A stretch of 64,000 nucleotides of DNA, taken from an uncultured Acidobacteriota bacterium (GTDB taxonomy: Bacteria; Acidobacteriota; Thermoanaerobaculia; Multivoradales; DATKCC01). The stretch is from NCBI GenBank assembly GCA_963837945.1, contig CAWIQD010000026.1:151754-215753 (forward strand), read 5' to 3'. The notes under the pieces were generated by a model, which searched no databases, was not told where the DNA came from, and saw nothing but the letters and a program-made list of their open reading frames with translations. A program made the translations under genes and the position numbers. Below, piece by piece: positions 10,676 through 24,899 of the stretch (position 1 is its first letter; each line of letters begins with the position of its first letter).

Positions 10676-11863
10676 TCACGAGACGGCGAGCCGGCGGGCG
10701 AGGCGGAGGGCGCCGCCGACCCCGAGGTCCCGGGGGGCGAGAGCGCGGGCGTGGATCCCCAGCAGGCGCCCGAAGAGCTCGGGCTCGGCGGCCAGGGCGC
10801 CGACCATCCGGCGGCGCAGCCCGGGCCGGCGCTCGACGGCCAGGAGCAGGCGAATCAGGGTCTCCGGCAGGCGACGCAGGCGTCGGTGGGCGCGGGCGTA
10901 GGCGGCGAGCGGCTCGCGGCCGGCGCTCACGCGTCCCCCCTCCGCCTGGGCCGCGAGCACCGCCTCGACGAGGGCGAAGGCGTGGTGGAACGCCAGGGAG
11001 AGGCCCTCGCCGGTGATCGCGTCGAGGTAGCCGGAAGCGTCGCCCACCAGGGCGATCCGCCGTCGCACGACCGCCCGCGGGCGGCGCGCCAGGGGGCCGC
11101 AACCGAGGTCGCGGGAGTCCCTCGGGGCGCCGGCGAGACGCGCCGCGAGCGCCGGCACCCGTGCCAGGAGGGCGTCGAAATTGGCGCTCTCTCCGCTCCA
11201 CAGCATCGCCACCCCCACCCGCTCCCGACCCACGGGAGTGACGTAGGCCTCGCAGCGATCGGCCCAGTGGACCTCGACCCGGTCGCTCCAGGGCGCGATC
11301 CGGTAATGGCGGCGGACGCCGAAGCGGCCGCCTCCCCTGGGCCCCGGGGTCGGCCCGTCGGCACCCCGCCCCGCGAGCCCGGCCCAGGCGCGCACCTTCG
11401 AGCCCAGGCCGTCCGCGCCGACCAGCCAGCTCCCGACGTGGCGCGAGCCGGAGGCGGTCCGGACCGCGGGGCGCTCGCCGCGCCCCGTGCCGAGCTCGAG
11501 GACGGTCGCCCGCTCGCCCCAGACGAGGCGCGCGCCCAGGGCCTCGGCGCGCCCCGCCAGCGCCTCGTGGAGCGCCGTCCGGCGCACGCCGAGGCCGGCG
11601 GCGCCACCGGGGAAGCGGCCGTCGGCCACCGTGTCGCCGTCGAGATAGCGGATGCCGCGGAAGGGAGAGCAGTCCGCGGAGCCCGGAAGCTCGACCCCCA
11701 GCTCGGCGAGGCGCGCCAGTCCGTCGGGCATCAGCCCCTCGCCGCACGGCTTGTCGATCGGCGGCCGGTCGCGGTCGAGGACGGTGACGGAGAGGCCGGC
11801 GAGACGGGCCCGGATCGCCACCGCGAGCCCCGCCGGCCCGCCGCCGACGACCAGCAGGTCCAA
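10676..11863 (-). CDS. FAD-dependent oxidoreductase (geranylgeranyl-reductase/flavin monooxygenase family; SrsC-like hydroxylase candidate)
   Basis: Dinucleotide-binding motif LLVVGGGPAGLAVA, DxxxxGxG-like GDASG motif. Start set to TTG 11863 (GGGAGTGAG spacer TTG) rather than the Arg-rich ATG at 11968. Start uncertain. Confidence 0.75.
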   Translation of the reverse strand: MDLLVVGGGPAGLAVAIRARLAGLSVTVLDRDRPPIDKPCGEGLMPDGLARLAELGVELPGSADCSPFRGIRYLDGDTVADGRFPGGAAGLGVRRTALHEALAGRAEALGARLVWGERATVLELGTGRGERPAVRTASGSRHVGSWLVGADGLGSKVRAWAGLAGRGADGPTPGPRGGGRFGVRRHYRIAPWSDRVEVHWADRCEAYVTPVGRERVGVAMLWSGESANFDALLARVPALAARLAGAPRDSRDLGCGPLARRPRAVVRRRIALVGDASGYLDAITGEGLSLAFHHAFALVEAVLAAQAEGGRVSAGREPLAAYARAHRRLRRLPETLIRLLLAVERRPGLRRRMVGALAAEPELFGRLLGIHARALAPRDLGVGGALRLARRLAVS

Positions 11864-11864
11864 C

Positions 11865-13724: not shown

Positions 13725-13956
13725 GCTTCCTCTCGACCGCGTCCACCAGGTCGCCGATGGTCGTGATCGCCTCCTCGTCCTGTGGGTCCAGGCAGACCTC
13801 GAACCGGTTCTCGACCTCGACCGCCAGGGTGAGGAGGCGGATCGAGTCGAGCGCCAGGTCTTCGACCAGTCGCATGGGGGGCTGGAGCGGGCGCTCCCAG
13901 GCCAGGTGCTCCCGCGCCACTTCGCGAATTCCCTGCAAGATCTCCTCCCGGCTCAC
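13711..13956 (-). CDS. Acyl carrier protein
   Basis: 81 aa. Phosphopantetheine attachment motif DLALDSIRLL. GTG start 13956 overlaps TGA of the upstream methyltransferase gene (GTGA). Confidence 0.8.
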   Translation of the reverse strand: MSREEILQGIREVAREHLAWERPLQPPMRLVEDLALDSIRLLTLAVEVENRFEVCLDPQDEEAITTIGDLVDAVERKLDGA

Positions 13957-14531
13957 CGCCCTCGCCCCCCGGCCGGCTCCGCGTCGTGCGGCACGGAGCG
14001 CGAGCTCGCCGCCCGCTCGAGCGCCGCGACTTCGACCCGGATGCGGTGGCCGAGGAGGAGGCCGTTGGCACCGGAGAAGAGGAGCGCGGTCACCCAGGCG
14101 GTGTGGACGAGCGGCAGGGCGGCGATCTCGAGCGCCACCGCCAGGTAGTTGGGGTGGTGGAGGTAGCGATAGGGCCCGGCGGTGACCGGGCTCGCCCCGG
14201 GGACGACGATCACCCGCGTCGTCCAGCGCTCGCCGAGGGCCTGGATCGCCCGGTAGCGAAGCGCCGACGCGATCGCCAGGACGAGGAGGGCCGCGGCCGC
14301 CAGGGCGGGCAGGAAGGGCCGGTCCAGGAGCCAGACCTCGGCCACGCACGAGACGAGAAACGCCGCGTGGAGAGCGACCATCCAGGGATAGTGCCCCGCC
14401 CCCACCTCCACCCCGCCCCGCGCCAGCAACCGCCGAGCATGCCCCCGCGCCAGCCGCAGCTCGGCAAGCCGCTCGAGCGCCACGATCCCGACGAGCACGG
14501 TGAAGAGGACCCGGGTATCGACCGTCGCCAT
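13953..14531 (-). CDS. Isoprenylcysteine carboxyl methyltransferase (ICMT)-family membrane methyltransferase (SrsB/FtpB-like)
   Basis: 192 aa, multiple TM segments, ICMT/PEMT-type C-terminal motif (RYLHHPNY...E). Positioned between type III PKS and ACP. Confidence 0.75.
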   Translation of the reverse strand: MATVDTRVLFTVLVGIVALERLAELRLARGHARRLLARGGVEVGAGHYPWMVALHAAFLVSCVAEVWLLDRPFLPALAAAALLVLAIASALRYRAIQALGERWTTRVIVVPGASPVTAGPYRYLHHPNYLAVALEIAALPLVHTAWVTALLFSGANGLLLGHRIRVEVAALERAASSRSVPHDAEPAGGRGR

Positions 14532-14655
14532 TGGCGTGGAATCCTATCCCCTCCCTTCCCCCCGCGAGGAGCCACAGGTCATCGGGCAATCCCGGCGGAG
14601 CGGGAGGCCCGCTCCGGCTGCGAACCCACCCTAGCCCTCGCCTCCCTCGCCCACC

Positions 14656-15729
14656 TCACCACTCCACCAGCACCAGCTCCGAGCAGAACCCCGGCCCCAT
14701 CGCCAGGATCAACCCCGCCGTTCCCGGCTCCGGCCGCCGGCTCGCCATCGTCTCCTCGAGGACCAGCAGCACCGACGTCGACGACAGGTTGCCCACCTCG
14801 CGCAGGCTCCGCCAGGTCACGTCGAGGGCCCCCGCGGGCAGCTCGAGCGCCTCCTCCATCGCCTCGAGCACCTTCGGCCCGCCCGGATGGCAGACCCAGG
14901 AGCCGATCGCGGCGCGGTCGAGGCCCTGGCCGGCGAGGAAGGCGTCGACGTCGTGGCGCAGGTGGCGCCGGACGACGTCCGGCACCTCCGCCGAGAGGAC
15001 GATCTGGAAGCCGCTCTCCGAGATGTCCCAACCCATGACCCGCTCCGAGTCGGGGTAGAAGACCGAGCGGGTGGCGACCACCCGGGGCCCCGGCCGGTCC
15101 CCGGCTCCGTTCCCCGGCAGCGCCCTCTCGGCGCCCGCCACCACCACCGCCGCGGCGCCGTCGCCGAACAGTCCGGAGGCGATCAGGTTCGGGATCGAGA
15201 GGTCCTGGAGCTGCATCGTCAGGCTGCACAGCTCGACCGACAGGAGCACCGCGACCTGGTCGGGGTAGGCCCGCACGTAGTCCGCCGCCCGCGCGATGCC
15301 GGCGGCGCCCGCCACGCAGCCGAGGCCGAAGATCGGCACCCGCTTGAGCCGCGGGGAGAGGCCCAGCCGGTTGATCAGCCGGGCGTCGAGCGACGGCGTG
15401 GCGATGCCGGTCACCGAGACCGAGATCAGGCAGTCGACCTCCTCGGGGGCGAGGCCGGCGCGGCCGAGGGCGTCCGAGAGCGCCGCGCCGCCCACCTCCT
15501 GGGCCACCCGGATCCAGGCGTCGTTGGCCTGGCCCCAGGTCTCGAGGGCCTCGTACTCGTCGATCGGCAGGGCGAGATGACGGCCGCCGACCAGGACGTT
15601 TCGGTGGAGCTGCTCGAGGCGGGCCAGGTTGTGGTGGCGCCTCGCCCAGTGGCGCCGCAGCGTCGCCAGCAGGGTCTCCTGGTCGTAGTAGTGGGGAGGG
15701 AAGGCGTGGCCGACGGCGACGACTCTCAC
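14656..15729 (-). CDS. Type III polyketide synthase (chalcone/stilbene synthase superfamily; alkylresorcinol/alkylpyrone synthase-like)
   Basis: Catalytic Cys context GLGCVAG, CHPGGPKVLEAMEEAL (His) and GNLSSTSVLLVLEE (Asn) motifs. Start set to GTG 15729 overlapping upstream TGA. Confidence 0.9.
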   Translation of the reverse strand: MRVVAVGHAFPPHYYDQETLLATLRRHWARRHHNLARLEQLHRNVLVGGRHLALPIDEYEALETWGQANDAWIRVAQEVGGAALSDALGRAGLAPEEVDCLISVSVTGIATPSLDARLINRLGLSPRLKRVPIFGLGCVAGAAGIARAADYVRAYPDQVAVLLSVELCSLTMQLQDLSIPNLIASGLFGDGAAAVVVAGAERALPGNGAGDRPGPRVVATRSVFYPDSERVMGWDISESGFQIVLSAEVPDVVRRHLRHDVDAFLAGQGLDRAAIGSWVCHPGGPKVLEAMEEALELPAGALDVTWRSLREVGNLSSTSVLLVLEETMASRRPEPGTAGLILAMGPGFCSELVLVEW

Positions 15730-16109
15730 CCGGCCTCCCCTTCGGGTCCGGCCACCGCCGCCATCAGCAGGCCGCAGACCGTGTAGAGGCCGAACCAGCC
15801 GATCACCAGGGTCCACCAGGCGTGGGCCGAGAGGGTCGAGGCCCCGGCCACCGTCAGGGCGAGCACGGGCCCGCGAAAGACCCATGCGGTCCAGGCCGCG
15901 GCGAGACCCGCCGCCCAGCGGTTGAGATGACGCTCGCGGACCAGCGCGAAGAGCGCCACGAGGCCCAGCCCCTCGAGCACCCAGAGGCCGAGCAGGTAGG
16001 GCGCGGGCAGCGCCTGGGGGCGCGCCAGGTCGAGGGCCTCGACGCCGAAGTGGAACAGCGCCTGAGCCAGGATCACGAGGGGCAGGGCCAGCACGAGAAA
16101 GCGGACCAA
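15726..16109 (-). CDS. Small integral membrane protein (4 predicted TM helices), first gene of PKS operon
   Basis: 127 aa, hydrophobic. Stop overlaps PKS start (GTGA). TTG start inferred. Confidence 0.5.
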   Translation of the reverse strand: MVRFLVLALPLVILAQALFHFGVEALDLARPQALPAPYLLGLWVLEGLGLVALFALVRERHLNRWAAGLAAAWTAWVFRGPVLALTVAGASTLSAHAWWTLVIGWFGLYTVCGLLMAAVAGPEGEAG

Positions 16110-16150
16110 GGTCCGGCGATGATATCTCCCTTCCCTCAGCTGCTAAAGTC

Positions 16151-17203
16151 GTGACATCTCCCTCCGGCCCGCCGGTTTCCCCGGCTCCGGGCGGCCCGGA
16201 CCTCCGCGCGCCCGGGCCGAGGCGGACCGATGATCCGCTCGCCTGCGCAGGCCGTATAGGGAACTGGATGACCGATCAGGCCGGAATCGTGACGAATGAG
16301 CCGAGTGTCTCGGGGAGCAGAGTGAACGGGAGGGGGCGTCCCCTTCCCCCCCGTGGGGTGGGAAGGGGATCGAGGGGTTGCGGGGGGCATCCGGTCAATC
16401 GCGACACGCCGCCCGCCGGAACCTGCTCGGCGGCCCCCGGGCGCCCGGCCCTCCTGGTCTTCACCCGGGGCGCGGACGCCGAGGGCCATCGCCGCCGACT
16501 CCTGCCGCGGCGCTTCGGCGACCGGGAGCGGGAGCTCTACCGGCTCTGCCTCGACGAGGCCCTGGCGGCCGCCCGTGGCGCCGGATGCCGGCTCGCGGTC
16601 TCCTCGCCGGCGCCCCTGGCGCTGCCGGAGGACGCCCAGCCGATCCCGCAGCGGGGCACCGGCTTCGGCGAGCGCCTCGCGGGGGCGTTCGACGAGGCTT
16701 TGCGCCCGGCCGGCGACGGCGGGCCCGGCGCGCTGGTCGCGGTCGGCACCGACACCCCCGGCCTGCGCCCGGCGCACGTCGAGCAAGCGCTCGCGCTCCT
16801 CGGCAACGGCCCGGGCGCCGAGCGGCGGGTGGTGGTCGGCCCGTCGCCCGACGGCGGCCTCTACCTGCTCGCCGCCCGGTGCCCGCTGGGCAGCCTGATC
16901 CGCCGCGTCTCCTGGTGCCGCAAGGGAACGCTCGCGAGCCTGCTCGCGACGCTTCGCGCCGCCGGCCTGGCGGTCGAGCTGCTCGAGCCGCTCGCCGACC
17001 TCGATCGCCCGGCGGACCTCGAGCGCTGGATCGCCCGCCGGGCGGCCGGCCGGGAAGGCCCGCTCGCCCGCCTGGCGGCGGCCCTCGGCCGGCTCCTCGC
17101 CGCTCTGCGCAGGCCCGCGGCGCTCTCGCCGCCGGTCCGCCCCCACCTCGCCTTCCTACCCGTGCCGGGCGGCCGCTCGCCGCCGCGCGGACGGCGGCAC
17201 TGA
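16151..17203 (+). CDS. DUF2064 family protein (MobA-like NTP-transferase fold; arsenosugar-type biosynthesis-associated glycosyltransferase-like)
   Basis: Conserved block ALLVFTRG...GFGERLAGAFDEAL...VAVGTDTPGL...VVVGPSPDGGLYLLA. True start uncertain (possibly ATG 16378 with an indel at the CCCCC run ~16430, or GTG 16349). Confidence 0.65.
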   Translation: MTSPSGPPVSPAPGGPDLRAPGPRRTDDPLACAGRIGNWMTDQAGIVTNEPSVSGSRVNGRGRPLPPRGVGRGSRGCGGHPVNRDTPPAGTCSAAPGRPALLVFTRGADAEGHRRRLLPRRFGDRERELYRLCLDEALAAARGAGCRLAVSSPAPLALPEDAQPIPQRGTGFGERLAGAFDEALRPAGDGGPGALVAVGTDTPGLRPAHVEQALALLGNGPGAERRVVVGPSPDGGLYLLAARCPLGSLIRRVSWCRKGTLASLLATLRAAGLAVELLEPLADLDRPADLERWIARRAAGREGPLARLAAALGRLLAALRRPAALSPPVRPHLAFLPVPGGRSPPRGRRH

Positions 17204-17327
17204 CCACCGAATCCGAAGCGACCTTCCGGACCGGCGTCGAAGCCGGCGAGACCGGGGGGTCTCGCCGCCCGCCGGGCGCGCCGGCCGGGCACGGCGAGCG
17301 AGAGAAACGACCAGGGGGAACACGACG

Positions 17328-18404
17328 GTGAGACCGCGCAGATCGCAGGTGGGGGCGGCGCTGCTGCTCCTCGCAGCAGGGACCGGGGCGTGCGCCCGGC
17401 CAGGGGGGGACGACGGGGCGGCGAAGGCGTCGCCGCCGGCTACGTCCGACGTCGTCGTCCAGTACGACTGCATCCCGAACTACGCCAACTGGGGGGCGGT
17501 CACCGACCTCTACCAGAAGACGACCGGCGTGAGGGTGCCGCCGGACATGAAGGGCTCCTCGGCGGCGATGGCCGCCCTCGAGGCGGAGAAGGCGAACCCG
17601 CAGGCGGACACCGCCTACTACTCCGGGGCGATCGGCTACGAGGCGGCGCGGCGCGGTCTGCACCAGGCCTACGAGCCGGCCGGCTGGGACCAGATCCCCG
17701 ACGGCCTGAAGGATCCGGACGGCAAGTGGTGGACGGTGCACACCGGCGCGATCGCGCTCGTCGTCAACACCGCGGCGCTCGGCGACAAGCCGGTGCCGAA
17801 GAGCTGGCAGGACCTGCTCCGCCCCGAGTACAAGGGGCTCGTCGCCTACGACGACCCGACCTGGGGCGGGACGGCGTACACCTTCGTCTACGGCATCAAT
17901 CACCTCCTGGGAGGCGACGCGCACGACTTCGAGCCCGGCCTCGCCTACCTCGAGAAGCTCGACGCCAACGTCCAGTCCTACCCGCGGGAGTCGATCTACA
18001 ACGACGTGCTGCGGGGCGAGATCCCGATCTGGATCAACGCCGACGGCAACGGCTACAAGATGCGCTACGTCGACGGCGGCCCGATCGAGGTGGTGATCCC
18101 GGAGGAAGGGTCGGTCTCGATGCCGCTGGTCATGGGGCTGGTCGCCGGCGCGCCGCACGAGGCGGCGGCCAAGCGCTATCTCGACTGGCTGCTCACCGCC
18201 CCGGCGCAGGCCGAGTTCGCCCGCTCCTACTTCCGGCCGGTGGTGCCGGGCGCGATGCCCGCGGAGGTGGCGAAGAACTTCCTGCCACTGGCCGACTACG
18301 CGCGGGTCCAGAACCTCGACCTGGGCGAGATGGCCGCCGCCTCGGACCCGCTCAAGCGCGCCTGGCAGGAGCGGATCCGCCACGGGGAGGGGGCGCCCGA
18401 GTGA
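17328..18404 (+). CDS. ABC transporter periplasmic substrate-binding lipoprotein (family 1, Fe3+/thiamine/polyamine-type)
   Basis: Lipobox LLAAGTGAC, SBP_bac_1-like sequence. Confidence 0.8.
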   Translation: MRPRRSQVGAALLLLAAGTGACARPGGDDGAAKASPPATSDVVVQYDCIPNYANWGAVTDLYQKTTGVRVPPDMKGSSAAMAALEAEKANPQADTAYYSGAIGYEAARRGLHQAYEPAGWDQIPDGLKDPDGKWWTVHTGAIALVVNTAALGDKPVPKSWQDLLRPEYKGLVAYDDPTWGGTAYTFVYGINHLLGGDAHDFEPGLAYLEKLDANVQSYPRESIYNDVLRGEIPIWINADGNGYKMRYVDGGPIEVVIPEEGSVSMPLVMGLVAGAPHEAAAKRYLDWLLTAPAQAEFARSYFRPVVPGAMPAEVAKNFLPLADYARVQNLDLGEMAAASDPLKRAWQERIRHGEGAPE

Positions 18405-19306
18405 GATCCGCCGGGTCGCGGGGGGCGAGGCATCTCGGTGCCCGGCCGCTGGTGGGGGCGCTTCTGTGCCTGCCGCTCGGTCTCTTCCTGCTCGCGGCCT
18501 TCGTGGTGCCGCTCGCCGGGCTCCTGCCCGACAGCCTGCACGCCACCCCGGGGATCCTGGGGCGGCCGGCGAGCGCGGCGGGAGCCGGCGCGGCGGCGGG
18601 TCTCGGCAACTATGCCCGGGCGCTCGCCGCGGCGGGCGAGCTCGCCGCCTTCCGCAACAGCCTGGTCCTCTCGCTGTCGGTGGCCGCGGCTTCGATCGTG
18701 CTCTGCCTGCCGCCGGCCTGGATGCTCGCCCGCCACCGCTTCCCCGGCAGAGCGGCCCTGCGCACCGTGCTCGCCCTGCCGCTCACCTTCTCCGGGGTGA
18801 TCGTCGGGTTCCTCGCGATCCTGGTCCTCGGGCGCCTCGGGCTGCTGCCGGCGGTGCTTCGGGTGCTCACCGGCCGGCCGCTCCTCGCCGGCAGCGCCTA
18901 CACCCTGGGCGGGCTGGTGGCGGCCTACGTCTACTTCGAGGTGCCGCGCGCCACGCTGACCCTCGAGGCCGCCTTCGGGCGCCTCGACCCGGACCAGGAG
19001 CGCGCCGCCGCCACCCTCGGGGCGAGCTGGCTCGAGCGGCTCTTGCGGATCACCCTGCCGCAGCTCTGGCCGGCCCTGGTCTCCACCCTGGCGGTGACCT
19101 TCGCCGCCTCGATGGGCTCGTTCGGGGTGGCCCTGATCCTGGCCCGCAAGCTCGAGCTCGTGCCGCTCGCGATCTACACCGAGTACACCGGCTTCCTGGA
19201 CTTGGGGTACGCCGCGGCGCTCTGCCTGCTGCTCGCCGGCGCCACGCTGGCGGCGGCCGGCCTGCTGCGCTGGCTGACCCGCGGCGAGGAGTGGATCTAC
19301 GGATGA
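18401..19306 (+). CDS. ABC transporter permease (first of two)
   Basis: GTG 18401 overlaps SBP stop (GTGA). Multi-TM, permease EAA-like loop region. Confidence 0.75.
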   Translation: MRSAGSRGARHLGARPLVGALLCLPLGLFLLAAFVVPLAGLLPDSLHATPGILGRPASAAGAGAAAGLGNYARALAAAGELAAFRNSLVLSLSVAAASIVLCLPPAWMLARHRFPGRAALRTVLALPLTFSGVIVGFLAILVLGRLGLLPAVLRVLTGRPLLAGSAYTLGGLVAAYVYFEVPRATLTLEAAFGRLDPDQERAAATLGASWLERLLRITLPQLWPALVSTLAVTFAASMGSFGVALILARKLELVPLAIYTEYTGFLDLGYAAALCLLLAGATLAAAGLLRWLTRGEEWIYG

Positions 19307-20136
19307 GGGGCCGGCCGAGCGCAGGCGGGCGCGCGGGCCGGCGCCTGGGAGTGGCCTACTGCTGGGCCCTCGGAGCGCTGGTGCTCCTGCCCGTGGCGGT
19401 GGTGGTCGCCGGCGCCTTCCTGCCCGCCGCCCGGCTGGGCATGGCGAGCGAGGGCTGGGTGCGGGGGCGCGAGGCGGCGGTGTCGCTCAAGTGGTTCGCC
19501 TACGTGCTCCATCTCTACGGGGGATCGCTCCTCTACTCGGCGGCGCTCGCGGCCGTGGCGGTGAGCGCCGGCCTGGCGCTCTGCCTGCCCGCGGCCTACG
19601 GCCTGGTGCGGCACCCGTTCCCGGGCGCCAAGCTCCTGGAGGAGCTGGCGCTCCTACCGCTCGCCGTGCCCGGGATCGCGGTGGCGATCGCGCTCATCGA
19701 GACCTACGCCCTGGTGCGCGGCGCCTGGTGGTTCGTGGCGGTGGGCCACCTCCTCTACACCGTGCCTCTGCTGCTGCGCACCCTGCTCCACGCACTCCGC
19801 GGCGAGGCCTTCGACGAGGAACGCGCGGCGGCCACCCTGGGCGCCGGCCCGCTCGCTCGCTTCGCCCGGATCACCTGGCCGCGGCTGCGCCGGCCGGCGA
19901 GCCTGGGAGCGCTGATCGTGGCGGCGGTCTCCTGGGGCGAGTTCAACGCCAGCTTCCTCCTCGCGACGCCGCTCCACCAGCCCTACCCGGCGGCGCTGTT
20001 CGCGACCTACACCTCGAACAGCTTCGCGGTCTCCTCGGCCGCGACCACGCTCTTTTTGGCTGGCATCCTGCCGCTGCTCGTCGCCATCGAGCGGCTGGGC
20101 CGGAGCGAGCTGATCGCCGTCAGGCAGGGGGCGTGA
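19303..20136 (+). CDS. ABC transporter permease (second)
   Basis: ATG 19303 overlaps upstream stop (ATGA). 277 aa, 6 TM. Confidence 0.75.
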   Translation: MRGRPSAGGRAGRRLGVAYCWALGALVLLPVAVVVAGAFLPAARLGMASEGWVRGREAAVSLKWFAYVLHLYGGSLLYSAALAAVAVSAGLALCLPAAYGLVRHPFPGAKLLEELALLPLAVPGIAVAIALIETYALVRGAWWFVAVGHLLYTVPLLLRTLLHALRGEAFDEERAAATLGAGPLARFARITWPRLRRPASLGALIVAAVSWGEFNASFLLATPLHQPYPAALFATYTSNSFAVSSAATTLFLAGILPLLVAIERLGRSELIAVRQGA

Positions 20137-21419
20137 GCGCCGTGGCGGAGCGTACGCGGCGGGGAGGCGAGGCCGGGCGAGGCGTGGCGATCGCCATCGA
20201 GCGGGTGAGCTTCGCCTACGGCGGCCGGCAACGGGACGGAGTCGTGTCCGGCCGCCTCCCGCCGGCCGGGCTCTCCGAGCTCACCCTGGAGGCCCCGGCC
20301 GGAGAGGTCACCACCGTCCTCGGCCCTTCGGGCGCCGGCAAGTCGACGCTGCTCGCGATCGTCGCCGGCCTGCTCGCGCCGCAGTCGGGAGACGTCCGCT
20401 TCGACGGCCGCTCGGTGCGCGGCGTGCCGCCCGAGCGCCGGCGCCTGGGGGTGGTCTTCCAGAGCTACGCCCTCTTCGCCCACATGACGGTCGAGGACAA
20501 CGTGGCCTTCCCCCTGCGGGTGACGCGCGGCGGCGCCGGCCGGCGCGGCGAGCGCCCGGCCACCGGCAGGCTGGGCCGGCGGGCCGCCCGCGCCCGCGTG
20601 GCGCCGCTCCTCGAGCGCTTCGAGATCGCCCCGCTCGCCGGGCGCTACCCGAGCCAGCTCTCGGGCGGCGAACGCCAGCGGGTGGCCCTCGCCCGGGCCC
20701 TCGCCTCCGAGCCCCGGGCGCTCCTGCTCGACGAGCCGCTCGCGGCCCTCGACGCCCGCCTGCGCCTGGCGCTGCGCTCCGAGCTCGCCCGGCGCCTCGC
20801 CGAGTCCGGAGTGACCACCCTCTACGTGACCCATGACCAGGAGGAGGCGATGGCCCTGGGCGACCGGGTGGCGGTGCTGCGCGACGGCCGGCTCGAGCAG
20901 GTCGGCACCCCCGAGGCCCTCTACCGCCGGCCCGCCACGCCCTTCGTCGCCTCGTTCATCGGCGAGGCGAACTTCCTGCCGGTCACCTGGGACCGGCGGC
21001 AGGGCACCCTCTCCGGCCCGTTGGGACGCTGGTCGCCGGACGGGGTGGACGCGAGCGGCCTCGGCGCGACCAACGGCTCCGCCCCGGGACGGCTGATGGT
21101 GCGGCCCGAGGACCTCGCCCCCGCGGCTCCCGAGGTCGCCCACCTGCTGGCCGAGGTGGTCAGCTCGACCTTCCTCGGCGGGCGCCGGCGCCTCACCGTC
21201 GTGGCGCACGCCTGCCATGAGCAACGCCGCGCCGGGGACGGCGCCGGCCTGGAGCTCCAGGTCGACCTGCCGGCGGCGCTCGCCGCCCGCCCGGGCGAGA
21301 TCGTGCCCCTGGCGATCGACTTCCGCCGCGCCGTGCTGCTGCCCTCGGAGCCGGTGATCCCATCGAAGAGTGCCGCCGCGGCCGCCGAGCGCGCACCGGC
21401 GCGAGAGGAGACCCCATGA
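20133..21419 (+). CDS. ABC transporter ATP-binding protein with C-terminal TOBE-like domain
   Basis: Walker A GPSGAGKST, signature LSGGERQRVALARAL, Walker B LLLDEP, H-loop. GTG start overlaps permease stop. Has a ~20-aa Arg/Gly-rich insertion after AFPLRV. Confidence 0.85.
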   Translation: MSAVAERTRRGGEAGRGVAIAIERVSFAYGGRQRDGVVSGRLPPAGLSELTLEAPAGEVTTVLGPSGAGKSTLLAIVAGLLAPQSGDVRFDGRSVRGVPPERRRLGVVFQSYALFAHMTVEDNVAFPLRVTRGGAGRRGERPATGRLGRRAARARVAPLLERFEIAPLAGRYPSQLSGGERQRVALARALASEPRALLLDEPLAALDARLRLALRSELARRLAESGVTTLYVTHDQEEAMALGDRVAVLRDGRLEQVGTPEALYRRPATPFVASFIGEANFLPVTWDRRQGTLSGPLGRWSPDGVDASGLGATNGSAPGRLMVRPEDLAPAAPEVAHLLAEVVSSTFLGGRRRLTVVAHACHEQRRAGDGAGLELQVDLPAALAARPGEIVPLAIDFRRAVLLPSEPVIPSKSAAAAAERAPAREETP

Positions 21420-22378
21420 GCGAGCCCAGCCACCAGCCCCGAACGTCCCCGCTCGATCCCGCCGGCACGCCCGGCCCCGGCGGCCCGGATTCCGCCCCAG
21501 GCTCCGGCCCAGATTCCGGTGGACCCCCGCGGGTCGCGCTCGAGTCGCTCGACACCCTCTGGTTCCAGGTCGCGGGCACGGTATGCAACCTCGCCTGCAC
21601 CCACTGCTTCGTGTCGTGCTCGCCGACCAACCACACCCACGACTACCTGAGCCTCGAGACGGTTCGCCGCTACCTCGCGGAGGCCGAGGAGCTGGGCGTC
21701 AAGGAGTACTACTTCACGGGCGGCGAGAGCTTCCTCAACCCGGAGATGGAGGCGATCCTCGAGGCCTCGCTCGGCGCCGGCCCGACGACCGTGCTGACCA
21801 ACGGCGTGCTGCTCGACGAGGAGCGCTGCCGGCGGCTGGCCGCGATCTCGGCCGCCTCGCCCTACTCCCTCGACGTGCGGGTCTCGCTCGACGGCTTCAC
21901 CGCCGAGGCGAACGACGCGATCCGGGGCGAGGGCGTCTTCGCGCGGGCGATGGCGGGCATTCGCAACCTGGTGGCGGCGGGCCTGAATCCGGTGCTCACG
22001 GTGACCGAGGTGCACCAGGAGAACGCTTCGGACGAAGGCAAGGCGCGGTTCTTCGAGCTGCTCCGGGGGCTCGGGATCGGCAAGCCGCGGCTCAAGGTGC
22101 TGCCGATCTTCCAGATCGGCGCCGAGGCCGAGCGCGGCGGCGCCTACGAGACCTGGCAGCGCCTCTCCGCGGGCGACGTGCCCGACGGCTCGTGGGACCA
22201 CCTCCAGTGCTCGAGCTGCCGGATGGTGACCGACCAGGGCGTGTGGGTGTGCCCGATCCTGGTCAACGAGCCCGAGGGGCGGATGGGCGAGACGCTCGCC
22301 GACTCGCTCACCACGTACCCGCTCGCCCACCCGGCGTGCTGGACCTGCCACGTCTACGGAGTGTCATGCCGAACCTGA
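21416..22378 (+). CDS. Radical SAM protein with C-terminal Cys-rich domain (rSAM/Cys-rich family, ArsS-like architecture)
   Basis: N-terminal CxxxCxxC (CNLACTHC). C-terminal cluster CSSC...C...CWTC...C. ATG overlaps ATPase stop (ATGA), so co-transcribed with the ABC importer. Confidence 0.8.
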   Translation: MSEPSHQPRTSPLDPAGTPGPGGPDSAPGSGPDSGGPPRVALESLDTLWFQVAGTVCNLACTHCFVSCSPTNHTHDYLSLETVRRYLAEAEELGVKEYYFTGGESFLNPEMEAILEASLGAGPTTVLTNGVLLDEERCRRLAAISAASPYSLDVRVSLDGFTAEANDAIRGEGVFARAMAGIRNLVAAGLNPVLTVTEVHQENASDEGKARFFELLRGLGIGKPRLKVLPIFQIGAEAERGGAYETWQRLSAGDVPDGSWDHLQCSSCRMVTDQGVWVCPILVNEPEGRMGETLADSLTTYPLAHPACWTCHVYGVSCRT

Positions 22379-22424
22379 CGGCCGCGCTCCGTCTCGGCCG
22401 GCGGCTCGCGCGGAGGGACCGACC

Positions 22425-23480
22425 ATGAGCCAACGACCGCCGCAGTCGCGTGAGGAGGGGCAGCGCGCGCGCCTCGCCGAGCAGCGCCGGATCGCTCGCG
22501 AGAAGCTGACCGCCCACCGCGGGATGGCGACCTGGGGGGAGAAGCTCGTCCCCCTGGGAGAGTTCCGCAAGGCCGCGGGCGCGGTCGGGCGCCGGCTCTC
22601 GGAGGACGAGCGCCGGGCCGAGCGCCGCGCCTTCGCCTCGTCCCGGCCGGCCGCGCCCGACCCGACGCCGATCGAGGGGCCCTACGGCAGGATCGCGGTC
22701 TTCGGCGGCGTCTACTCGAACCACCTGGCGCTCGCCGCCCTGCTCGAGGACGCCCGGCGCCGGGGCGCCGAGGCGATCTACTGCCTGGGCGACCTGGGCG
22801 CCTTCGGGCCGCACCCGGAGAAGGTGCGCCCGCTGCTTGCGGACGGCGGCGTCCGCTCGATCCAGGGCAACTACGAGGAGTCGCTCGCCACCGACGCCCC
22901 CGACTGCAACTGCGGCTACACCGATCCGCGGGACAACCACTTCGCCGATCTCTCCTACCGCTACACCGAGGAGAACACCTCCGACGACTTCAAGGCCTGG
23001 ATGGGGCGGCTGCCGCGCCGGCGCCGGGTGCGCCTCGGCGAGCGCCAGCTCCTCCTGGTCCACGGCTCGCCGCGGCGAATCAACGAGTTCCTCTTCGCCT
23101 CGGCGACGCCGGACGCCTTCCTCGAGGTGCTGCTCGACCAGGAGGGGGCCGACGGTCTGCTGGTCACCCACACCGGGCTCCACTGGCACCGGCGCCTGCC
23201 CTCGGGGCGCGACGCGGTGAACGTCGGGGTGATCGGCCGGCCGGCCAACGACGGGCGGACCGAGGTCTGGTACGCACTGCTCGACGCCCCGGACGGCGGC
23301 GGCCGCGACGGCGCGCCGCGCGTGGATCTGGTGCCGCTCGCCTACGACTGGCGCGCCCTCGCCGCCGAGATGCGCGCCGAGCGCCTGCCGGAGGAGTTCG
23401 TCACGACCCTCGAGACCGGCTGGTGGACCACCTGCCTCGAGGTCCTGCCCGCCAAGGAGCGGTCCGCGTCCAGGTTCTAG
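22425..23480 (+). CDS. Metallophosphoesterase (calcineurin-like phosphoesterase family) with ~80-aa N-terminal extension
   Basis: Motifs IAVFGGVYSNH, CLGDLGAFGP, GNYE, LVHGSP, THTG typical of MPE fold. Confidence 0.75.
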   Translation: MSQRPPQSREEGQRARLAEQRRIAREKLTAHRGMATWGEKLVPLGEFRKAAGAVGRRLSEDERRAERRAFASSRPAAPDPTPIEGPYGRIAVFGGVYSNHLALAALLEDARRRGAEAIYCLGDLGAFGPHPEKVRPLLADGGVRSIQGNYEESLATDAPDCNCGYTDPRDNHFADLSYRYTEENTSDDFKAWMGRLPRRRRVRLGERQLLLVHGSPRRINEFLFASATPDAFLEVLLDQEGADGLLVTHTGLHWHRRLPSGRDAVNVGVIGRPANDGRTEVWYALLDAPDGGGRDGAPRVDLVPLAYDWRALAAEMRAERLPEEFVTTLETGWWTTCLEVLPAKERSASRF

Positions 23481-23505
23481 GGCCGGGCGATAGACTCGCC
23501 CGCGC

Positions 23506-24571
23506 CATGGAGTACACCGCCCGCAAGAGCTTCGCCCACGACCAGGTGCCCGGCGTCGGGGTGTTGGTGGTCAACCTCGGGACGCCGGAGGCGCCGACGG
23601 CGAAGGCCCTGCGCCCCTACCTGCGGGAGTTCCTCTCCGACCCGCGGGTGATCGAGCTGCCGCGCTGGAAGTGGTGGCCGATCCTCAACCTGTTCGTGCT
23701 CACCCGCCGGCCGAAGACGTCCGCCCACCTCTACGAGACGGTCTGGACCGAGGGGGGCTCGCCGCTCGCCCTCTCGACCGAGCGCCAGGCGGCCGGGCTG
23801 GCCGAGATCCTGGGCCGCGAGGTGGGGCCGCCGGTCCACGTGCGGGCGGGCATGAGCTACGGCGAGCCGTCGGTGGGGCGCGCCCTCCGCGAGCTGCGCG
23901 AGGCCGGGTCCACCCGCCTCCTGGTGCTCCCGATGTATCCCCAGTACTCGGGCACCACCGTCGGCTCGGTGTTCGACGCGGTGGCCCGCGAGCTCACCTC
24001 CTGGCGAGTGGTGCCCGAGCTCCGGACGATCCACGGCTGGCACGACGAGCCGGGCTACGTCGGCGCGCTCGCCGCCTCGATCCGGGAGCTCTGGGAGCGG
24101 CCCGGCGCGGGCGGCGCCCCCGAGAAGCTGCTGTTCTCCTTCCACGGGATTCCGCAGCGCTACTTCGAGGGCGGCGATCCCTACCCGTGCCTGTGCCGCA
24201 AGACCGCGCGGCTGGTGGCGGGGGAGCTGGGGCTGGCCGACGACCGGTGGATCGTGGCCTTCCAATCCCTGTTCGGGCGCGAGGAGTGGATCAAGCCGTA
24301 CACGGCGGACACGGTCGCCGCGCTGGGACGCGCCGGGGTCGCGAGCCTGGACGTCGTGTGCCCCGGGTTCTCGTCGGACTGCCTGGAGACGCTCGAGGAG
24401 ATCGACGTCCAGAACCGCCGGTTCTTCACCGAGGCGGGCGGCGGGCGGTTCCGCTACGTCCCGGCCCTCAACGACCGGCCGGACCACCTGCGCTTCCTGG
24501 CCGACCTGGTGGCGCGCCACCTGACGGGCTGGGTGGAGCCGGCTTCCGGCCCCACACCGGCTCGGGCGTGA
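23506..24571 (+). CDS. hemH: Ferrochelatase
   Basis: Trimmed to ATG 23506 (MEYTARKSF...VGVLVVNLGTPEAPT). Family motifs throughout. C-terminal region CPGFSSDCLETLEEI. Confidence 0.9.
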
Positions 24572-24899
24572 TCTCCGGCTCGGGCGCAGGGCCCGGATCG
24601 CTCCAGCCCTGCTCCGAGACCAGCATCACCGGGCGCACCGTCATGTCCCGGTCGACCAGGATCTGGCACGACAGGCGCACGCCGTCCAGCCCGCGCTCCT
24701 CGAGGCGCAGGCCCTCGGCCTCGGTCATCTTCTCGGGCTCGCCGGCCACGAGCTCGACCCGGCAGGTCGTGCACCGGGCCCAGCCGCCGCAGCGGTGGCC
24801 GATGTCGACGCCGGCGCCCTCGATGGCGTGGACGAGCCGGGTGCCGGCGGCGACCTCGGTGCGGATCTCTCCTTCGTGGAGGATGGTCACGATCGGCAT
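24468..24899 (-). CDS. 2Fe-2S ferredoxin (plant/adrenodoxin-type) with Pro-rich C-terminal tail
   Basis: ATG 24899 (MPIVTILHEGE..). Cys ligands C-x-C..CxxC and a distal C (HRCGGWARCTTC...SCQI). Tail overlaps hemH 3' end by ~100 bp. Confidence 0.7.
   Translation of the reverse strand: MPIVTILHEGEIRTEVAAGTRLVHAIEGAGVDIGHRCGGWARCTTCRVELVAGEPEKMTEAEGLRLEERGLDGVRLSCQILVDRDMTVRPVMLVSEQGWSDPGPAPEPEITPEPVWGRKPAPPSPSGGAPPGRPGSAGGPAGR

What the first reader, a model, noticed from the sequence alone, without database searches (positions are those of the whole stretch)
16151..23480. Fe3+-type ABC importer translationally coupled to a radical SAM/Cys-rich protein, flanked by DUF2064 and a metallophosphoesterase
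SBP, two permeases, ATPase and a radical SAM gene are chained by GTGA/ATGA start-stop overlaps (18401, 19303, 20133, 21416). A radical SAM enzyme is therefore stoichiometrically co-expressed with an uptake system, which is unusual. The rSAM has an N-terminal CxxxCxxC plus a C-terminal six-Cys cluster. That architecture matches the 'radical SAM/Cys-rich domain' family, whose characterised member is arsenosugar biosynthesis ArsS. DUF2064 (upstream) is a family repeatedly found with ArsS-type genes. A metallophosphoesterase follows after a 46-bp gap. This could be an organoarsenical/organophosphonate-type modification pathway fed by the importer, or an uncharacterised import-and-process module.
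Basis: inference. Interest (0 to 1): 0.65.

Follow-up and report, generated by a model that had tools for sequence, protein, structure and literature searches.

The report
Importer-coupled radical SAM arsenic-type module
A soil acidobacterium has joined an uptake pump for phosphate-like organic anions to an uncharacterised radical SAM enzyme and a phosphatase-like protein, and in related genomes that same pair is repeatedly linked or fused to arsenic-methylating enzymes, which points to a third, unstudied enzyme family for making or processing organic arsenic compounds.

Summary
The anatomy is real. DUF2064, a binding protein, two permeases, an ATPase and a radical SAM (rSAM) gene are chained by 4-nt overlaps. 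A metallophosphoesterase (MPE) follows 46 nt later and ferrochelatase 26 nt after that.

The family labels need correcting:
- The rSAM is not an ArsS equivalog (61 bits against a cut-off of 300). Its best hit is the Rv1681 family (113 against 380).
- The "Fe3+-type" binding protein most resembles binders of sugar phosphate, pyridoxal phosphate and aminoethylphosphonate.

The arsenic idea is nevertheless supported by independent evidence:
- In 51 related loci with ≥6 kb flanks, rSAM sits with MPE in 49, a flavoprotein in 43 and an ArsM-family methyltransferase in 24.
- Different phosphate/arsenate uptake systems are slotted into the cluster in different lineages.
- Natural rSAM–ArsM, flavoprotein–rSAM and DUF2064–rSAM fusion proteins exist.
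- The MPE's invariant Cys-x-Cys aligns with Cys74/Cys76 of apparent Car1 (MPE-type arsenate reductase) orthologues from ars operons.

This window lacks ArsM and the flavoprotein. Elsewhere its DUF2064–importer unit stands alone.

Most likely function: an imported pentavalent arsenical or analogue is reduced by the MPE and alkylated by the rSAM. All of this is inferred from context; nothing has been shown biochemically.

The parts
15726..16109 (-). Small hydrophobic protein of 127 aa with no Pfam family, transcribed divergently from the operon. It is a recurrent neighbour of the rSAM cluster.
   Evidence: GC3-based gene call; no Pfam hit. Homologues (37-89% identity) lie next to the rSAM cluster in most related loci, including loci without the type III PKS. 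In L012, L025 and L043 it is on the same strand as the cluster. A sigma-70-like site for it lies at 16146-16119.
16358..17203 (+). DUF2064 protein, related to TIGR04282 and CofC (nucleotidyl-/glycosyl-transferase-like). The ORF is open from 16151, but the likely start is 16358.
   Evidence: PF09837 scores 62.3 bits (cut-off 25.8). TIGR04282 scores 82.4 bits, below its cut-off of 134. The N-terminal ~69 codons are absent from homologues. It is the first gene of both the stand-alone importer operon and the ArsM/Pst-type clusters. It is fused to an rSAM of this family in P0370.
17328..18404 (+). Periplasmic substrate-binding protein of an ABC importer (SBP_bac_6 class), with an N-terminal signal or lipoprotein-like sequence.
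   Evidence: PF13343 scores 124 bits. The best NCBIfam models are the 2-aminoethylphosphonate binders PhnS/PhnS2, far below cut-off. The nearest solved structures are 5t1p, 8x1a, 4r72-75, 6wce (pyridoxal-5-phosphate binding protein) and 4r6y (putative AEP binder). Homologues of 70-89% identity are abundant in Thermoanaerobaculia.
18401..19306 (+). ABC importer permease 1. Its GTG start overlaps the SBP stop (GTGA).
   Evidence: BPD_transp_1 scores 41 bits. The best NCBIfam models (ModB, CysT/W, PhnU) are all below cut-off.
19303..20136 (+). ABC importer permease 2, with an ATGA overlap.
   Evidence: BPD_transp_1 scores 31 bits. It is 92% identical to its L001 counterpart.
20133..21419 (+). ABC importer ATPase with a C-terminal TOBE-like domain, GTGA overlap.
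   Evidence: ABC_tran scores 119 bits, with a weak TOBE_2 hit. The best NCBIfam model is PhnT2 at 289 bits, below its cut-off of 458.
21416..22378 (+). Radical SAM enzyme of a small uncharacterised family. It has CX3CX2C at C57/C61/C64 and a conserved C-terminal six-Cys region. Its ATG overlaps the ATPase stop (ATGA).
   Evidence: PF04055 scores 71.8 bits. The best NCBIfam hit is the Rv1681 family at 113 bits against 380; ArsS scores 61.5 against 300. Homologues of 47-88% identity occur mainly in Thermoanaerobaculia. Only 173 clusters at 50% identity reach E<=1e-30 among 1.84 billion representatives. Fusions with ArsM, the flavoprotein and DUF2064 exist.
22425..23480 (+). Metallophosphoesterase-fold protein with an invariant Cys-x-Cys (C161, C163) and a degraded metal motif I. 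It is the constant partner of the rSAM.
   Evidence: PF12850 scores 32.2 bits. In an AF2 model of moderate confidence (pLDDT 72), the closest folds are SapH 3qfm, 1nnw and 2gju. It lies immediately downstream of the rSAM in 65 of 73 loci with enough sequence. C161/C163 align with C74/C76 of MPEs encoded in ars operons. GGVYSNH replaces SD(V/I)H(G/S)N, and GNYE is shared with those MPEs.
23507..24571 (+). Ferrochelatase (HemH), 26 nt downstream of the MPE. It is probably co-transcribed and is a syntenic neighbour in relatives.
   Evidence: PF00762 scores 374 bits. HemH lies downstream of the cluster in 23 of 51 loci, usually straight after the flavoprotein gene that this window lacks. No terminator-like site lies between the genes.

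Best explanation
The operon joins two conserved modules.

Module A is DUF2064 plus a PhnS/AfuA-like ABC importer. It takes up a phosphate-like organic anion and probably activates it. In other Thermoanaerobaculia it is a stand-alone operon that also includes a phosphate-selective porin.

Module B is an uncharacterised radical SAM enzyme plus a metallophosphoesterase-fold protein with a Cys-x-Cys motif. It belongs to a small family that is an arsenic-processing cassette in its relatives, where the core is ArsM-type methyltransferase, rSAM, MPE and an FAD/NAD(P) oxidoreductase.

Proposed mechanism (every step is inferred):
1. The importer brings in a pentavalent arsenical. This could be arsenate or, given the phosphonate-type binding protein and the absence of ArsM here, an arsonate such as methylarsonate or another organo-oxyanion.
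2. The Car1-like MPE reduces it to the trivalent state through its Cys161/Cys163 pair.
3. The rSAM uses a SAM-derived radical to form a new C-As bond on the trivalent arsenical, held by its C-terminal cysteines. This would be analogous to ArsS and ArsL, although the enzyme belongs to neither family.
4. DUF2064 then tailors or activates the product.

The 4-nt stop/start overlaps make importer and enzyme synthesis coupled.
For: Shown directly:
- Gene order, overlaps and Cys motifs.
- rSAM and MPE are adjacent in 65 of 73 loci.
- In 51 loci with >=6 kb flanks the neighbours are MPE 49, flavoprotein 43, ArsM-like 24, DUF2064 22 and Pst-like transporter 10.
- The ArsM-like protein scores 337 bits on the arsinothricin ArsM model and 205 bits on the arsenite methyltransferase subfamily. 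It keeps the YGCG, SNCVLNL and GCISGA cysteines.

Independent of gene order:
- In Acidobacteria bacterium Mor1 (L064) the genes are rearranged into divergent operons. ArsM there is followed by an aquaglyceroporin (MIP) and a PHO4 phosphate transporter.
- Distant loci carry an AhpD/CMD-like gene followed by flavoprotein, rSAM and MPE.

Gene fusions:
- P0257 and P0381 are rSAM-ArsM fusions.
- P0248 and P0264 are flavoprotein-rSAM fusions.
- P0370 is a TIGR04282-rSAM fusion.

Uptake systems:
- Four different phosphate/arsenate-type uptake systems are linked to the pair: PstSCAB-like, PhnDEC-like, MIP plus PHO4, and the window's SBP_bac_6 type.
- Two of them end in a 4-nt overlap with the rSAM gene. 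In Roseomonas, PhnC overlaps the MPE gene.

The MPE:
- tblastn against plasmids finds its homologues in ars operons: arsR-DUF6428-MPE-DMT-GNAT-ACR3 in Hymenobacter, and arsR-MPE-arsM in Paraclostridium.
- The Cys-x-Cys aligns with Cys74/Cys76 there.
- PMC12124457 states that the MPE Car1 is an As(V) reductase needing Cys74/Cys76 and that the Paraclostridium Orf1 is about 40% identical to it.

The binding protein:
- Its nearest relatives bind organophosphates or phosphonates.
Against: - The window has no ArsM-like gene, no flavoprotein partner and no ars resistance genes within 64 kb. The arsenic link therefore rests on homologues.
- Only about half of related loci have ArsM nearby.
- The DUF2064-porin-importer unit occurs without rSAM/MPE in 3 of 3 other contexts read. 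The importer may have a phosphorus-related job of its own, and its junction with the rSAM may be lineage-specific (window, L001, L003, L047 only).
- The MPE is only 28-34% identical to the ars-operon MPEs (about 33-38% to the Roseomonas cluster MPE). It lacks the Asp and His of motif I that they keep.
- The rSAM is not an ArsS or ArsL family member.
- Its C-terminal domain could not be modelled (pLDDT below 50).
- No biochemical data exist for any member.
Confidence: 0.5

Rival explanations
1. Phosphorus scavenging with built-in arsenic detoxification. The importer, with DUF2064 and (in relatives) a phosphate-selective porin, exists to acquire phosphate, organophosphate or phosphonate. Such systems also admit arsenate or arsonates. 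The rSAM-MPE pair (with ArsM and the flavoprotein in relatives) is co-expressed to convert the co-imported arsenical into a harmless organoarsenical. It is not there to make a product that the cell wants.
For: Every linked transporter type belongs to a phosphate or phosphonate family: Pst, PhnD, PhnS-like, PHO4 and Porin_O_P. Module A stands alone in other genomes. MPE homologues sit in arsenic resistance operons.
Against: No efflux pump (ACR3, ArsB or ArsP) was seen in the clusters whose genes were scanned. A MIP channel next to ArsM (L064) suggests deliberate As(III) entry. ArsM and PstSCAB move as one unit inside the cluster. A rSAM is an expensive solution for detoxification.
Confidence: 0.2
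2. Arsenic-free organophosphorus chemistry. The importer brings in a phosphonate or phosphoester. The rSAM performs C-P or C-H radical chemistry on it, and the MPE hydrolyses a phosphoester intermediate.
For: The binding protein and ATPase score best on 2-aminoethylphosphonate transporter models. The Roseomonas relative uses a PhnD-type phosphonate importer. The MPE fold is a phosphoesterase fold.
Against: The MPE has lost the Asp and His of metal motif I and has Tyr in place of His in GNH(D/E), so it is a poor candidate for a hydrolase. ArsM-family proteins with all As(III)-binding cysteines are adjacent to, and fused to, this rSAM family. An aquaglyceroporin is also linked.
Confidence: 0.1
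3. One reading: the rSAM is an ArsS-type enzyme, and the cluster is an arsenosugar pathway like that of cyanobacteria.
For: The architecture is similar (an N-terminal rSAM core followed by a Cys-containing C-terminal region). One fusion member, P0381, aligns to the ArsS model end to end at 60 bits. A 37%-identical homologue in Roseomonas sits beside a true TIGR04282 protein (185 bits) and near a GT2 glycosyltransferase.
Against: TIGR04167 scores 61.5 bits against a cut-off of 300 and ranks fifth, behind Rv1681-family and SPASM-type models. No DUF3641 hit was found. The linked ArsM is closer to the arsinothricin-type model than to the arsenosugar-type model (337 against 123 bits). The partner set of MPE and flavoprotein is not part of the NCBIfam families named for arsenosugar biosynthesis (ArsS, arsenosugar-type ArsM, TIGR04282) that appeared in these scans.
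Confidence: 0.07
4. Lipid tailoring. The rSAM-MPE(-flavoprotein) set works with the divergently transcribed type III polyketide synthase cluster (FAAL, ACP, ICMT-like methyltransferase, FAD hydroxylase). Together they would modify a phenolic lipid, possibly producing an arsenic- or phosphorus-containing lipid.
For: The type III PKS lies within 9 kb of the rSAM, on the opposite strand, in 32 of 51 loci, even when other genes are inserted between them. The DUF2064-rSAM fusion P0370 sits next to a CDP-alcohol phosphatidyltransferase, a fatty-acid hydroxylase and glycosyltransferases.
Against: The rSAM-MPE pair occurs without the PKS in Longimicrobiales, Planctomycetota, Fibrobacterota and several Acidobacteriota. 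The linkage may therefore be inherited synteny. No fusion or overlap ties the two gene sets together.
Confidence: 0.08
5. Iron or haem function: a ferric-iron importer feeding Fe-S or haem assembly, with ferrochelatase downstream.
For: The binding protein belongs to the class often annotated 'Fe3+ ABC'. The ATPase hits a ferric ABC model at 209 bits. HemH lies 26 nt downstream.
Against: No ferric binding-protein model appears among the NCBIfam hits, which are AEP, polyamine, thiamine and sulfate types. The closest characterised structures bind organophosphates. In relatives the same position holds Pst- or Phn-type phosphate-family importers. HemH follows the cluster whichever importer is present.
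Confidence: 0.03

Closest known systems
ArsS, the arsenosugar-pathway radical SAM enzyme (NCBIfam TIGR04167, 'rSAM/Cys-rich')
   Same: About 300 aa, with CX3CX2C near the N-terminus followed by a Cys-containing C-terminal region. Its family is genomically linked to ArsM and to DUF2064/TIGR04282 proteins. The presumed chemistry is addition of a SAM-derived radical to a trivalent arsenical.
   Different: It scores only 61.5 bits against a cut-off of 300, over the core only, and has no DUF3641 hit. It has different constant partners (MPE and flavoprotein). The linked ArsM is closer to the arsinothricin type. It occurs mainly in Thermoanaerobaculia.
ArsL/ArsM of the arsinothricin cluster arsQML (PMC8552651)
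   Same: An rSAM gene next to an ArsM whose best model match is the arsinothricin ArsM (337 bits). It is a minimal cassette that builds a C-As bond with SAM.
   Different: BgArsL is 428 aa with CX3CX2C at residues 194-201. The enzyme here is 320 aa with the motif at 57-64. No ArsL model appears among the top NCBIfam hits. There is no ArsQ permease; importers are linked instead.
Car1, the metallophosphoesterase-type arsenate reductase of Rufibacter tibetensis, and the Orf1 proteins of Paraclostridium ars operons (cited in PMC12124457)
   Same: MPE fold and a GNY(D/E) motif in place of GNH(D/E). The Cys-x-Cys is at the aligned position of Cys74/Cys76. A conserved Cys lies in the xCxGD motif. The proteins occur next to arsM.
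   Different: Identity is 28-34%. The Asp and His of motif I are lost (GGVYSNH). There is an extra conserved 85-aa N-terminal extension and a C-terminal GWWTTC segment with a fourth invariant Cys. The Car1 sequence and paper could not be read here.
AfuABC, P5PA and PhnSTUV-type ABC importers (SBP_bac_6 class)
   Same: The same binding-protein fold class, two permeases, and an ATPase with a TOBE-like tail. The nearest solved relatives include AfuA-type proteins, the pyridoxal-phosphate binder P5PA and a putative AEP binder.
   Different: All equivalog models fall far below cut-off (109.7 bits against 310 for PhnS). The ligand is unknown. The importer is preceded by DUF2064 and, in relatives, by a Porin_O_P gene.
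Rv1681 (MoeX) family radical SAM proteins (NCBIfam NF049973)
   Same: It is the best-scoring curated model for the rSAM (113 bits, residues 56-235).
   Different: The score is far below the cut-off of 380 and the C-terminal region does not align. That family's function is also unknown.

Membership tests
Radical SAM superfamily (PF04055) | Pfam score above the gathering cut-off, and a CX3CX2C cluster motif | tested here: met
   71.8 bits against 29.5. C57/C61/C64 are invariant in 25 homologues.
ArsS (TIGR04167, arsenosugar rSAM/Cys-rich protein) | NCBIfam equivalog score of at least 300 bits over the full length | tested here: not met
   61.5 bits, with residues 43-189 aligned to model positions 5-147 of 303. 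It ranks fifth among the hits.
ArsS (TIGR04167, arsenosugar rSAM/Cys-rich protein) | C-terminal DUF3641-type domain. That ArsS carries this domain is recalled from memory, not checked here. | tested here: not met
   A Pfam scan at E<=0.01 returns only Radical_SAM and Fer4_12.
ArsS (TIGR04167, arsenosugar rSAM/Cys-rich protein) | Genomic linkage to ArsM | tested here: inconclusive
   Linkage is met for the family: 24 of 51 loci and two fusion proteins. It is not met in this window, where tblastn finds no ArsM-like gene.
ArsS (TIGR04167, arsenosugar rSAM/Cys-rich protein) | 5'-deoxyadenosyl transfer to DMAs(III) | not testable with these tools
   This needs an enzyme assay.
ArsL (arsinothricin rSAM) | A protein of about 430 aa with a mid-protein CX3CX2C (positions 194-201 in BgArsL) | tested here: not met
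   The enzyme here is 320 aa with the motif at 57-64. BgArsL features come from PMC8552651.
SPASM/twitch rSAM maturases | A SPASM domain hit (PF13186) or an equivalog score | tested here: not met
   No SPASM Pfam hit. ScmF, ScmE and mycofactocin models hit the core only, at 64-83 bits against cut-offs of 265-400. The C-terminal CxxCx10C...CxxCx6C pattern resembles an auxiliary-cluster motif only loosely (reading of the sequence).
DUF2064 (PF09837) and TIGR04282 | Pfam gathering score; NCBIfam cut-off of 134 bits | tested here: inconclusive
   Pfam is met at 62.3 bits against 25.8. TIGR04282 is not met at 82.4 bits against 134. The protein is therefore a DUF2064 member but not a TIGR04282 equivalog.
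Car1-type MPE arsenate reductase | MPE fold with the catalytic Cys-x-Cys (Cys74/Cys76) | tested here: met
   PF12850 scores 32.2 bits against 27, and Foldseek hits MPEs. C161/C163 align with C74/C76 of the Hymenobacter ars-operon MPE and with the Paraclostridium MPE. The essential role of these Cys is stated in PMC12124457.
Car1-type MPE arsenate reductase | Intact binuclear metal site (Asp and His of motif I) | tested here: not met
   GGVYSNH is found where the ars-operon MPEs have SD(V/I)H(G/S)N.
Car1-type MPE arsenate reductase | Thioredoxin-coupled As(V) reduction | not testable with these tools
   This needs an enzyme assay. The Car1 paper is not held.
Ferric-iron ABC importer (FbpA/SfuA type) | The binding protein matches a ferric-binding equivalog or its closest characterised relatives bind iron | tested here: not met
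   NCBIfam hits are AEP, polyamine, thiamine and sulfate binders, all below cut-off. Among PDB hits, sequences deposited as iron binders score 23-30 bits, against 48-119 bits for 5t1p, AfuA-type entries, P5PA and the AEP binder. That AfuA binds sugar phosphates is recalled from the literature and was not verified here.

The most novel reading that the evidence does not exclude
This rSAM family would be a third, unrecognised class of C-As bond-forming radical SAM enzyme, after ArsS and ArsL. It would work with a Cys-x-Cys MPE reductase and a dedicated flavoprotein. Soil Acidobacteriota would wire it to importers so that they deliberately acquire arsenic (or scavenge other microbes' methylarsenicals) to build an organoarsenical. 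That product could be an arsenolipid, given the adjacent phenolic-lipid genes and, in distant relatives, phospholipid head-group genes.
Probability: 0.2. Interest if true: 0.85.

Novelty: new variant of a known kind. Interest (0 to 1): 0.62.

Why it matters
Only two radical SAM enzymes are known to make carbon-arsenic bonds: ArsS for arsenosugars and ArsL for arsinothricin (review PMC12159101). The genes behind most environmental organoarsenicals, arsenolipids included, are unknown.

This family is distinct from both. It is highly conserved (70-88% identity across many MAGs) and common in soil Thermoanaerobaculia. Fusion and neighbourhood evidence tie it to ArsM, to an arsenate-reductase-like MPE and to at least four kinds of phosphate/arsenate uptake system.

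If the inference holds, it gives three things:
- a small, testable cassette for a new organoarsenical;
- a case of importer-coupled ("acquisitive") arsenic metabolism;
- a functional handle on DUF2064 and on the Cys-x-Cys MPE subfamily.

It would also bear on arsenic cycling in soils and paddy fields.

Tried and rejected
- **Riboswitch or leader RNA.** Rfam at gathering threshold over the whole window, and at E<=1 over 15600-24700, gave nothing in the region.
- **Structure of the rSAM.** The AF2 model from a 25-sequence alignment was poor (mean pLDDT 55, C-terminal region below 50). I did not use it for fold search.
- **PDB profile search with the rSAM alignment.** It hit only the common core of BlsE, SkfB, viperin and MoaA.
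- **PDB sequence searches.** The partner flavoprotein (query: L025 unk377) and DUF2064 gave nothing.
- **Literature.** There are no papers for 'DUF2064', and none describing an rSAM-MPE-ArsM cluster. The Car1 paper (PMC11309893) is not held, so the Car1 comparison rests on apparent orthologues on plasmids and on a citing paper.
- **ArsL identity.** Rejected on architecture.
- **Marinobacter plasmid hit to the rSAM.** It is an unannotated two-piece match (possibly a pseudogene) with no informative context.
- **ArsM-like gene, flavoprotein or ars resistance genes in the window.** None found in the genes scanned or by tblastn.
- **Promoter and terminator scan.** It found no internal signals on the + strand, which is weak evidence only.

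Full report
**1. What is in the sequence**

The window is 74% GC. Its closest relatives for every gene examined are metagenome-assembled genomes of Acidobacteriota, class Thermoanaerobaculia. An identical MPE (P0121) lies on a 280-kb public contig.

On the + strand between 16151 and 24571 there are eight genes with third-position GC of 0.89-0.97.
- The SBP stop overlaps the permease-1 start (GTGA, 18401).
- Permease 1 overlaps permease 2 (ATGA, 19303).
- Permease 2 overlaps the ATPase (GTGA, 20133).
- The ATPase overlaps the rSAM (ATGA, 21416).
- The MPE follows after 46 nt.
- Each start has a GGAGG-like motif 5-10 nt upstream.

Pfam confirms DUF2064, SBP_bac_6, two BPD_transp_1, ABC_tran (with a weak TOBE_2), Radical_SAM and Metallophos_2.

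Two amendments are needed. First, the DUF2064 gene most likely starts at 16358, because the first ~69 codons of the ORF have no counterpart in homologues. Second, a ferrochelatase gene follows the MPE after 26 nt with no terminator-like site, so the transcription unit probably runs to 24571. No Rfam family, riboswitches included, matches the region.

**2. Family assignments**

The rSAM has CX3CX2C at C57/C61/C64 and six C-terminal cysteines, all invariant in 25 homologues of 68-88% identity. Against NCBIfam it is a member of nothing:
- Rv1681 family: 113 bits (cut-off 380)
- ScmF: 83 bits
- mycofactocin maturase: 75 bits
- ScmE: 64 bits
- ArsS/TIGR04167: 61.5 bits (cut-off 300)

All of these align to the rSAM core only. 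There is no SPASM or DUF3641 Pfam hit.

The DUF2064 protein passes Pfam but not TIGR04282 (82 bits against 134).

The binding protein scores best on 2-aminoethylphosphonate binders, though far below cut-off. Its nearest solved relatives are 5t1p, 8x1a, the AfuA-type entries 4r72-75, the pyridoxal-5-phosphate binder 6wce and a putative AEP binder. Entries deposited as true iron binders score much lower. 'Fe3+-type' is therefore a superfamily label, not a substrate call.

**3. Comparative genomics of the rSAM**

A pattern scan of one genome per species returned 517 relatives, of which I kept 80 loci. Four more loci came from contig look-ups.

tblastn with the window's proteins, and with proteins from relatives, shows that the rSAM gene is followed immediately by the MPE gene in 65 of 73 loci that have enough downstream sequence. 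Among the 51 loci with at least 6 kb on both sides, the neighbours within 9 kb are:

| Neighbour | Loci (of 51) |
|---|---|
| MPE | 49 |
| 377-aa protein | 43 |
| Type III polyketide synthase (opposite strand) | 32 |
| ArsM-like methyltransferase | 24 |
| DUF2064 | 22 |
| PstSCAB-like transporter | 10 |
| The window's own type of binding protein | 2 |

The 377-aa protein initially had no Pfam hit. Full-length fused versions show it to be a Pyr_redox_2/3 FAD/NAD(P) oxidoreductase.

The methyltransferase scores 337 bits on the arsinothricin-type ArsM model and 205 bits on the arsenite methyltransferase subfamily. It keeps the cysteines of the YGCG, SNCVLNL and GCISGA motifs and has a Cys-rich tail. 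That these motifs are the As(III)-binding cysteines of ArsM/AS3MT is established knowledge, and PMC8552651 mentions the four conserved Cys.

**4. The linkage does not depend on gene order**

- In one set of loci the order is DUF2064, ArsM, PstS, PstC, PstA, PstB, rSAM, MPE, flavoprotein, with PstB overlapping the rSAM by 4 nt (L025).
- In another set, the ArsM-PstSCAB block sits between the MPE and the flavoprotein (L006, L019, L022, L024).
- In Acidobacteria bacterium Mor1 the genes are split into divergent operons. ArsM there is followed by an aquaglyceroporin (MIP) and a PHO4 phosphate transporter (L064).
- In Polarisedimenticolia and Fibrobacterota the order is an AhpD/CMD-like gene, flavoprotein, rSAM, MPE.
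- On a Roseomonas plasmid, a 37%-identical full-length homologue of the rSAM lies in TIGR04282 (185 bits), DUF547, a second rSAM, rSAM, PhnD, PhnE, PhnC, MPE. PhnC overlaps the MPE gene.

An exhaustive profile search of 1.84 billion representatives shows that the family is small, with 173 clusters at E<=1e-30. It contains natural fusions:
- rSAM-ArsM (P0257, P0381)
- flavoprotein-rSAM (P0248, P0264)
- TIGR04282/DUF2064-rSAM (P0370)

The fusions were confirmed by NCBIfam and Pfam. Together, adjacency in many arrangements plus fusions is strong evidence that the rSAM, ArsM, the flavoprotein and DUF2064 act in one pathway.

**5. The MPE**

It is as conserved as the rSAM (69-89% identity). It has four invariant cysteines: C120 in YCLGD, C161 and C163 in DCNCGY, and C337. 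Its metal motifs are altered: GGVYSNH where MPEs have DxH, and GNYE where they have GNH(D/E). A model of moderate confidence (pLDDT 72) matches the MPE folds SapH, PF1291 and PH1004.

tblastn against plasmids found 29 records, mostly Hymenobacteraceae, other Bacteroidota and Paraclostridium. In the contexts I read, the homologue sits in an arsenic operon: arsR, DUF6428, MPE, DMT, GNAT, ACR3 in Hymenobacter, and arsR, MPE, arsM in Paraclostridium bifermentans.

PMC12124457 reports that the MPE Car1 of Rufibacter tibetensis (Hymenobacteraceae) is an As(V) reductase whose Cys74 and Cys76 are essential. It also reports that the Paraclostridium Orf1 is about 40% identical to Car1 and has these cysteines.

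In my alignment the Hymenobacter protein has its Cys-x-Cys exactly at residues 74 and 76, and C161/C163 of the window's MPE align with them. GNY(D/E) and the Cys of xCxGD are shared as well. The window's subfamily and the Roseomonas protein differ in having lost the Asp and His of motif I. The MPE is thus a divergent relative of MPE-type arsenate reductases. It has the redox cysteines but probably lacks a working binuclear hydrolase site.

**6. The importer**

Homologues of the window's binding protein at 70-89% identity are abundant in Thermoanaerobaculia. In all three additional contexts I read, the operon is DUF2064, a phosphate-selective porin (Porin_O_P) or an unannotated 414-aa protein, SBP, permease, permease, ATPase. 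No rSAM or MPE follows.

DUF2064 plus importer is therefore a self-standing module. Only the window, L001, L003 (which keeps the porin) and L047 have it joined to rSAM-MPE. In a neighbour-joining tree of the rSAM, the window, L001 and L003 group together next to ArsM/Pst-type loci. This suggests that the SBP_bac_6 cassette replaced the ArsM-Pst cassette at the same position.

The window has neither an ArsM-like gene nor the flavoprotein anywhere in its 64 kb. No ars resistance genes were found among the neighbours scanned.

**7. Interpretation**

Shown:
- the gene chain and its overlaps;
- the family memberships and non-memberships;
- the co-occurrence counts;
- the fusions;
- the alignment of the Cys-x-Cys.

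Inferred: module B (rSAM plus MPE, with ArsM and a flavoprotein in relatives) processes arsenic. The MPE would reduce a pentavalent arsenical. The flavoprotein would recycle the MPE or supply electrons. ArsM would methylate. The rSAM would form a further C-As bond with a SAM-derived radical. This last step follows the analogy with ArsS and ArsL, the only rSAM enzymes known for this chemistry.

At least four unrelated phosphate/arsenate-type uptake systems are recruited, several of them overlapping the rSAM or MPE gene. This argues that the substrate or its precursor comes from outside.

In this window the phosphonate-like binding protein and the missing ArsM suggest import of an already organic oxyanion such as an arsonate. 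This is the weakest step. I put this explanation at about 0.5.

The main rival, at about 0.2, is that the importers serve phosphorus acquisition and module B detoxifies co-imported arsenic. Arsenic-free phosphonate chemistry, a literal ArsS/arsenosugar reading, a phenolic-lipid tailoring role and an iron/haem role are less likely, for the reasons given under the rivals.

**8. Novelty**

None of the full-text searches run against the held literature library turned up a description of this cluster. No curated model names the rSAM or the MPE.

It works like the ArsM-plus-rSAM organoarsenical systems but is a member of neither the ArsS nor the ArsL family. It also brings its own partners: a Car1-like MPE, a flavoprotein, DUF2064 and importers. 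I therefore rate it a new variant of a known kind. It is of real interest to arsenic biochemists, but it rests entirely on genomic inference, and the window holds a reduced version that lacks ArsM.

Noticed in passing
window 10676-15729 (- strand): A phenolic-lipid type cluster lies divergent from the operon. It comprises a type III polyketide synthase (14656-15729), an ICMT-like methyltransferase (13953-14531), an 81-aa ORF whose L001 counterpart carries a PP-binding (ACP) domain (13711-13956), an AMP-binding fatty-acyl ligase (11865-13724) and an FAD_binding_3 hydroxylase (10676-11863). It resembles the Streptomyces srsABC alkylresorcinol/alkylquinone genes (a resemblance recalled from memory). 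The PKS is an opposite-strand neighbour of the rSAM cluster in 32 of 51 related loci.
   Followed up: partly
window 23507-24571 (+): Ferrochelatase lies 26 nt after the MPE gene. In relatives it usually follows the flavoprotein gene that is missing here, so this lineage appears to have cleanly lost that gene between the MPE and HemH.
   Followed up: partly
L012 9194-10909: PstB and the rSAM read as a single 571-aa ORF with no stop codon between them. This is either a natural ABC-ATPase-rSAM fusion or an indel error in a long-read MAG.
   Followed up: no
L092 713-3901: The rSAM-ArsM fusion protein P0257 is followed by an EPSP-synthase-family gene and a RibD-like deaminase/reductase. An AroA-like enzyme is also a hallmark of the Streptomyces arseno-organic (bisenarsan) cluster (recalled from memory).
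   Followed up: no
L093 6115-14365 and L094: The DUF2064-rSAM fusion P0370 lies directly after a CDP-alcohol phosphatidyltransferase and a concentrative nucleoside transporter. Next to it are GT2, GT87, DUF547 and fatty-acid hydroxylase genes. This context suggests lipid head-group synthesis.
   Followed up: no
L087 1871-8831 (Roseomonas haemaphysalidis plasmid p546-1): A proteobacterial counterpart of the module: TIGR04282, DUF547, a TrsS/Tes-like rSAM, a homologue of this rSAM, PhnD/E/C-type importer and MPE. DUF547, FAD oxidoreductases, a VTT-domain protein and GT2 lie nearby.
   Followed up: partly
window 7009-9202: A second, unrelated radical SAM gene (Radical_SAM_N2 plus Radical_SAM, 7009-8577, - strand) lies next to an AbiEii/DUF6036 nucleotidyltransferase-like gene (8699-9202, +). 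A Porin_4 outer-membrane porin is at 9447-10532 (-).
   Followed up: no
window 26536-28548: About 2 kb has no confident gene call by the GC3 criterion, although long ORFs overlap it. The syntenic stretch in L001 encodes a Thioredox_DsbH protein and two proteins without Pfam hits, upstream of SspB.
   Followed up: no
window 54841-55813: Bacterial small SRP RNA (54841-54939, - strand) and two tRNA genes (55617-55705 and 55727-55813, +).
   Followed up: no
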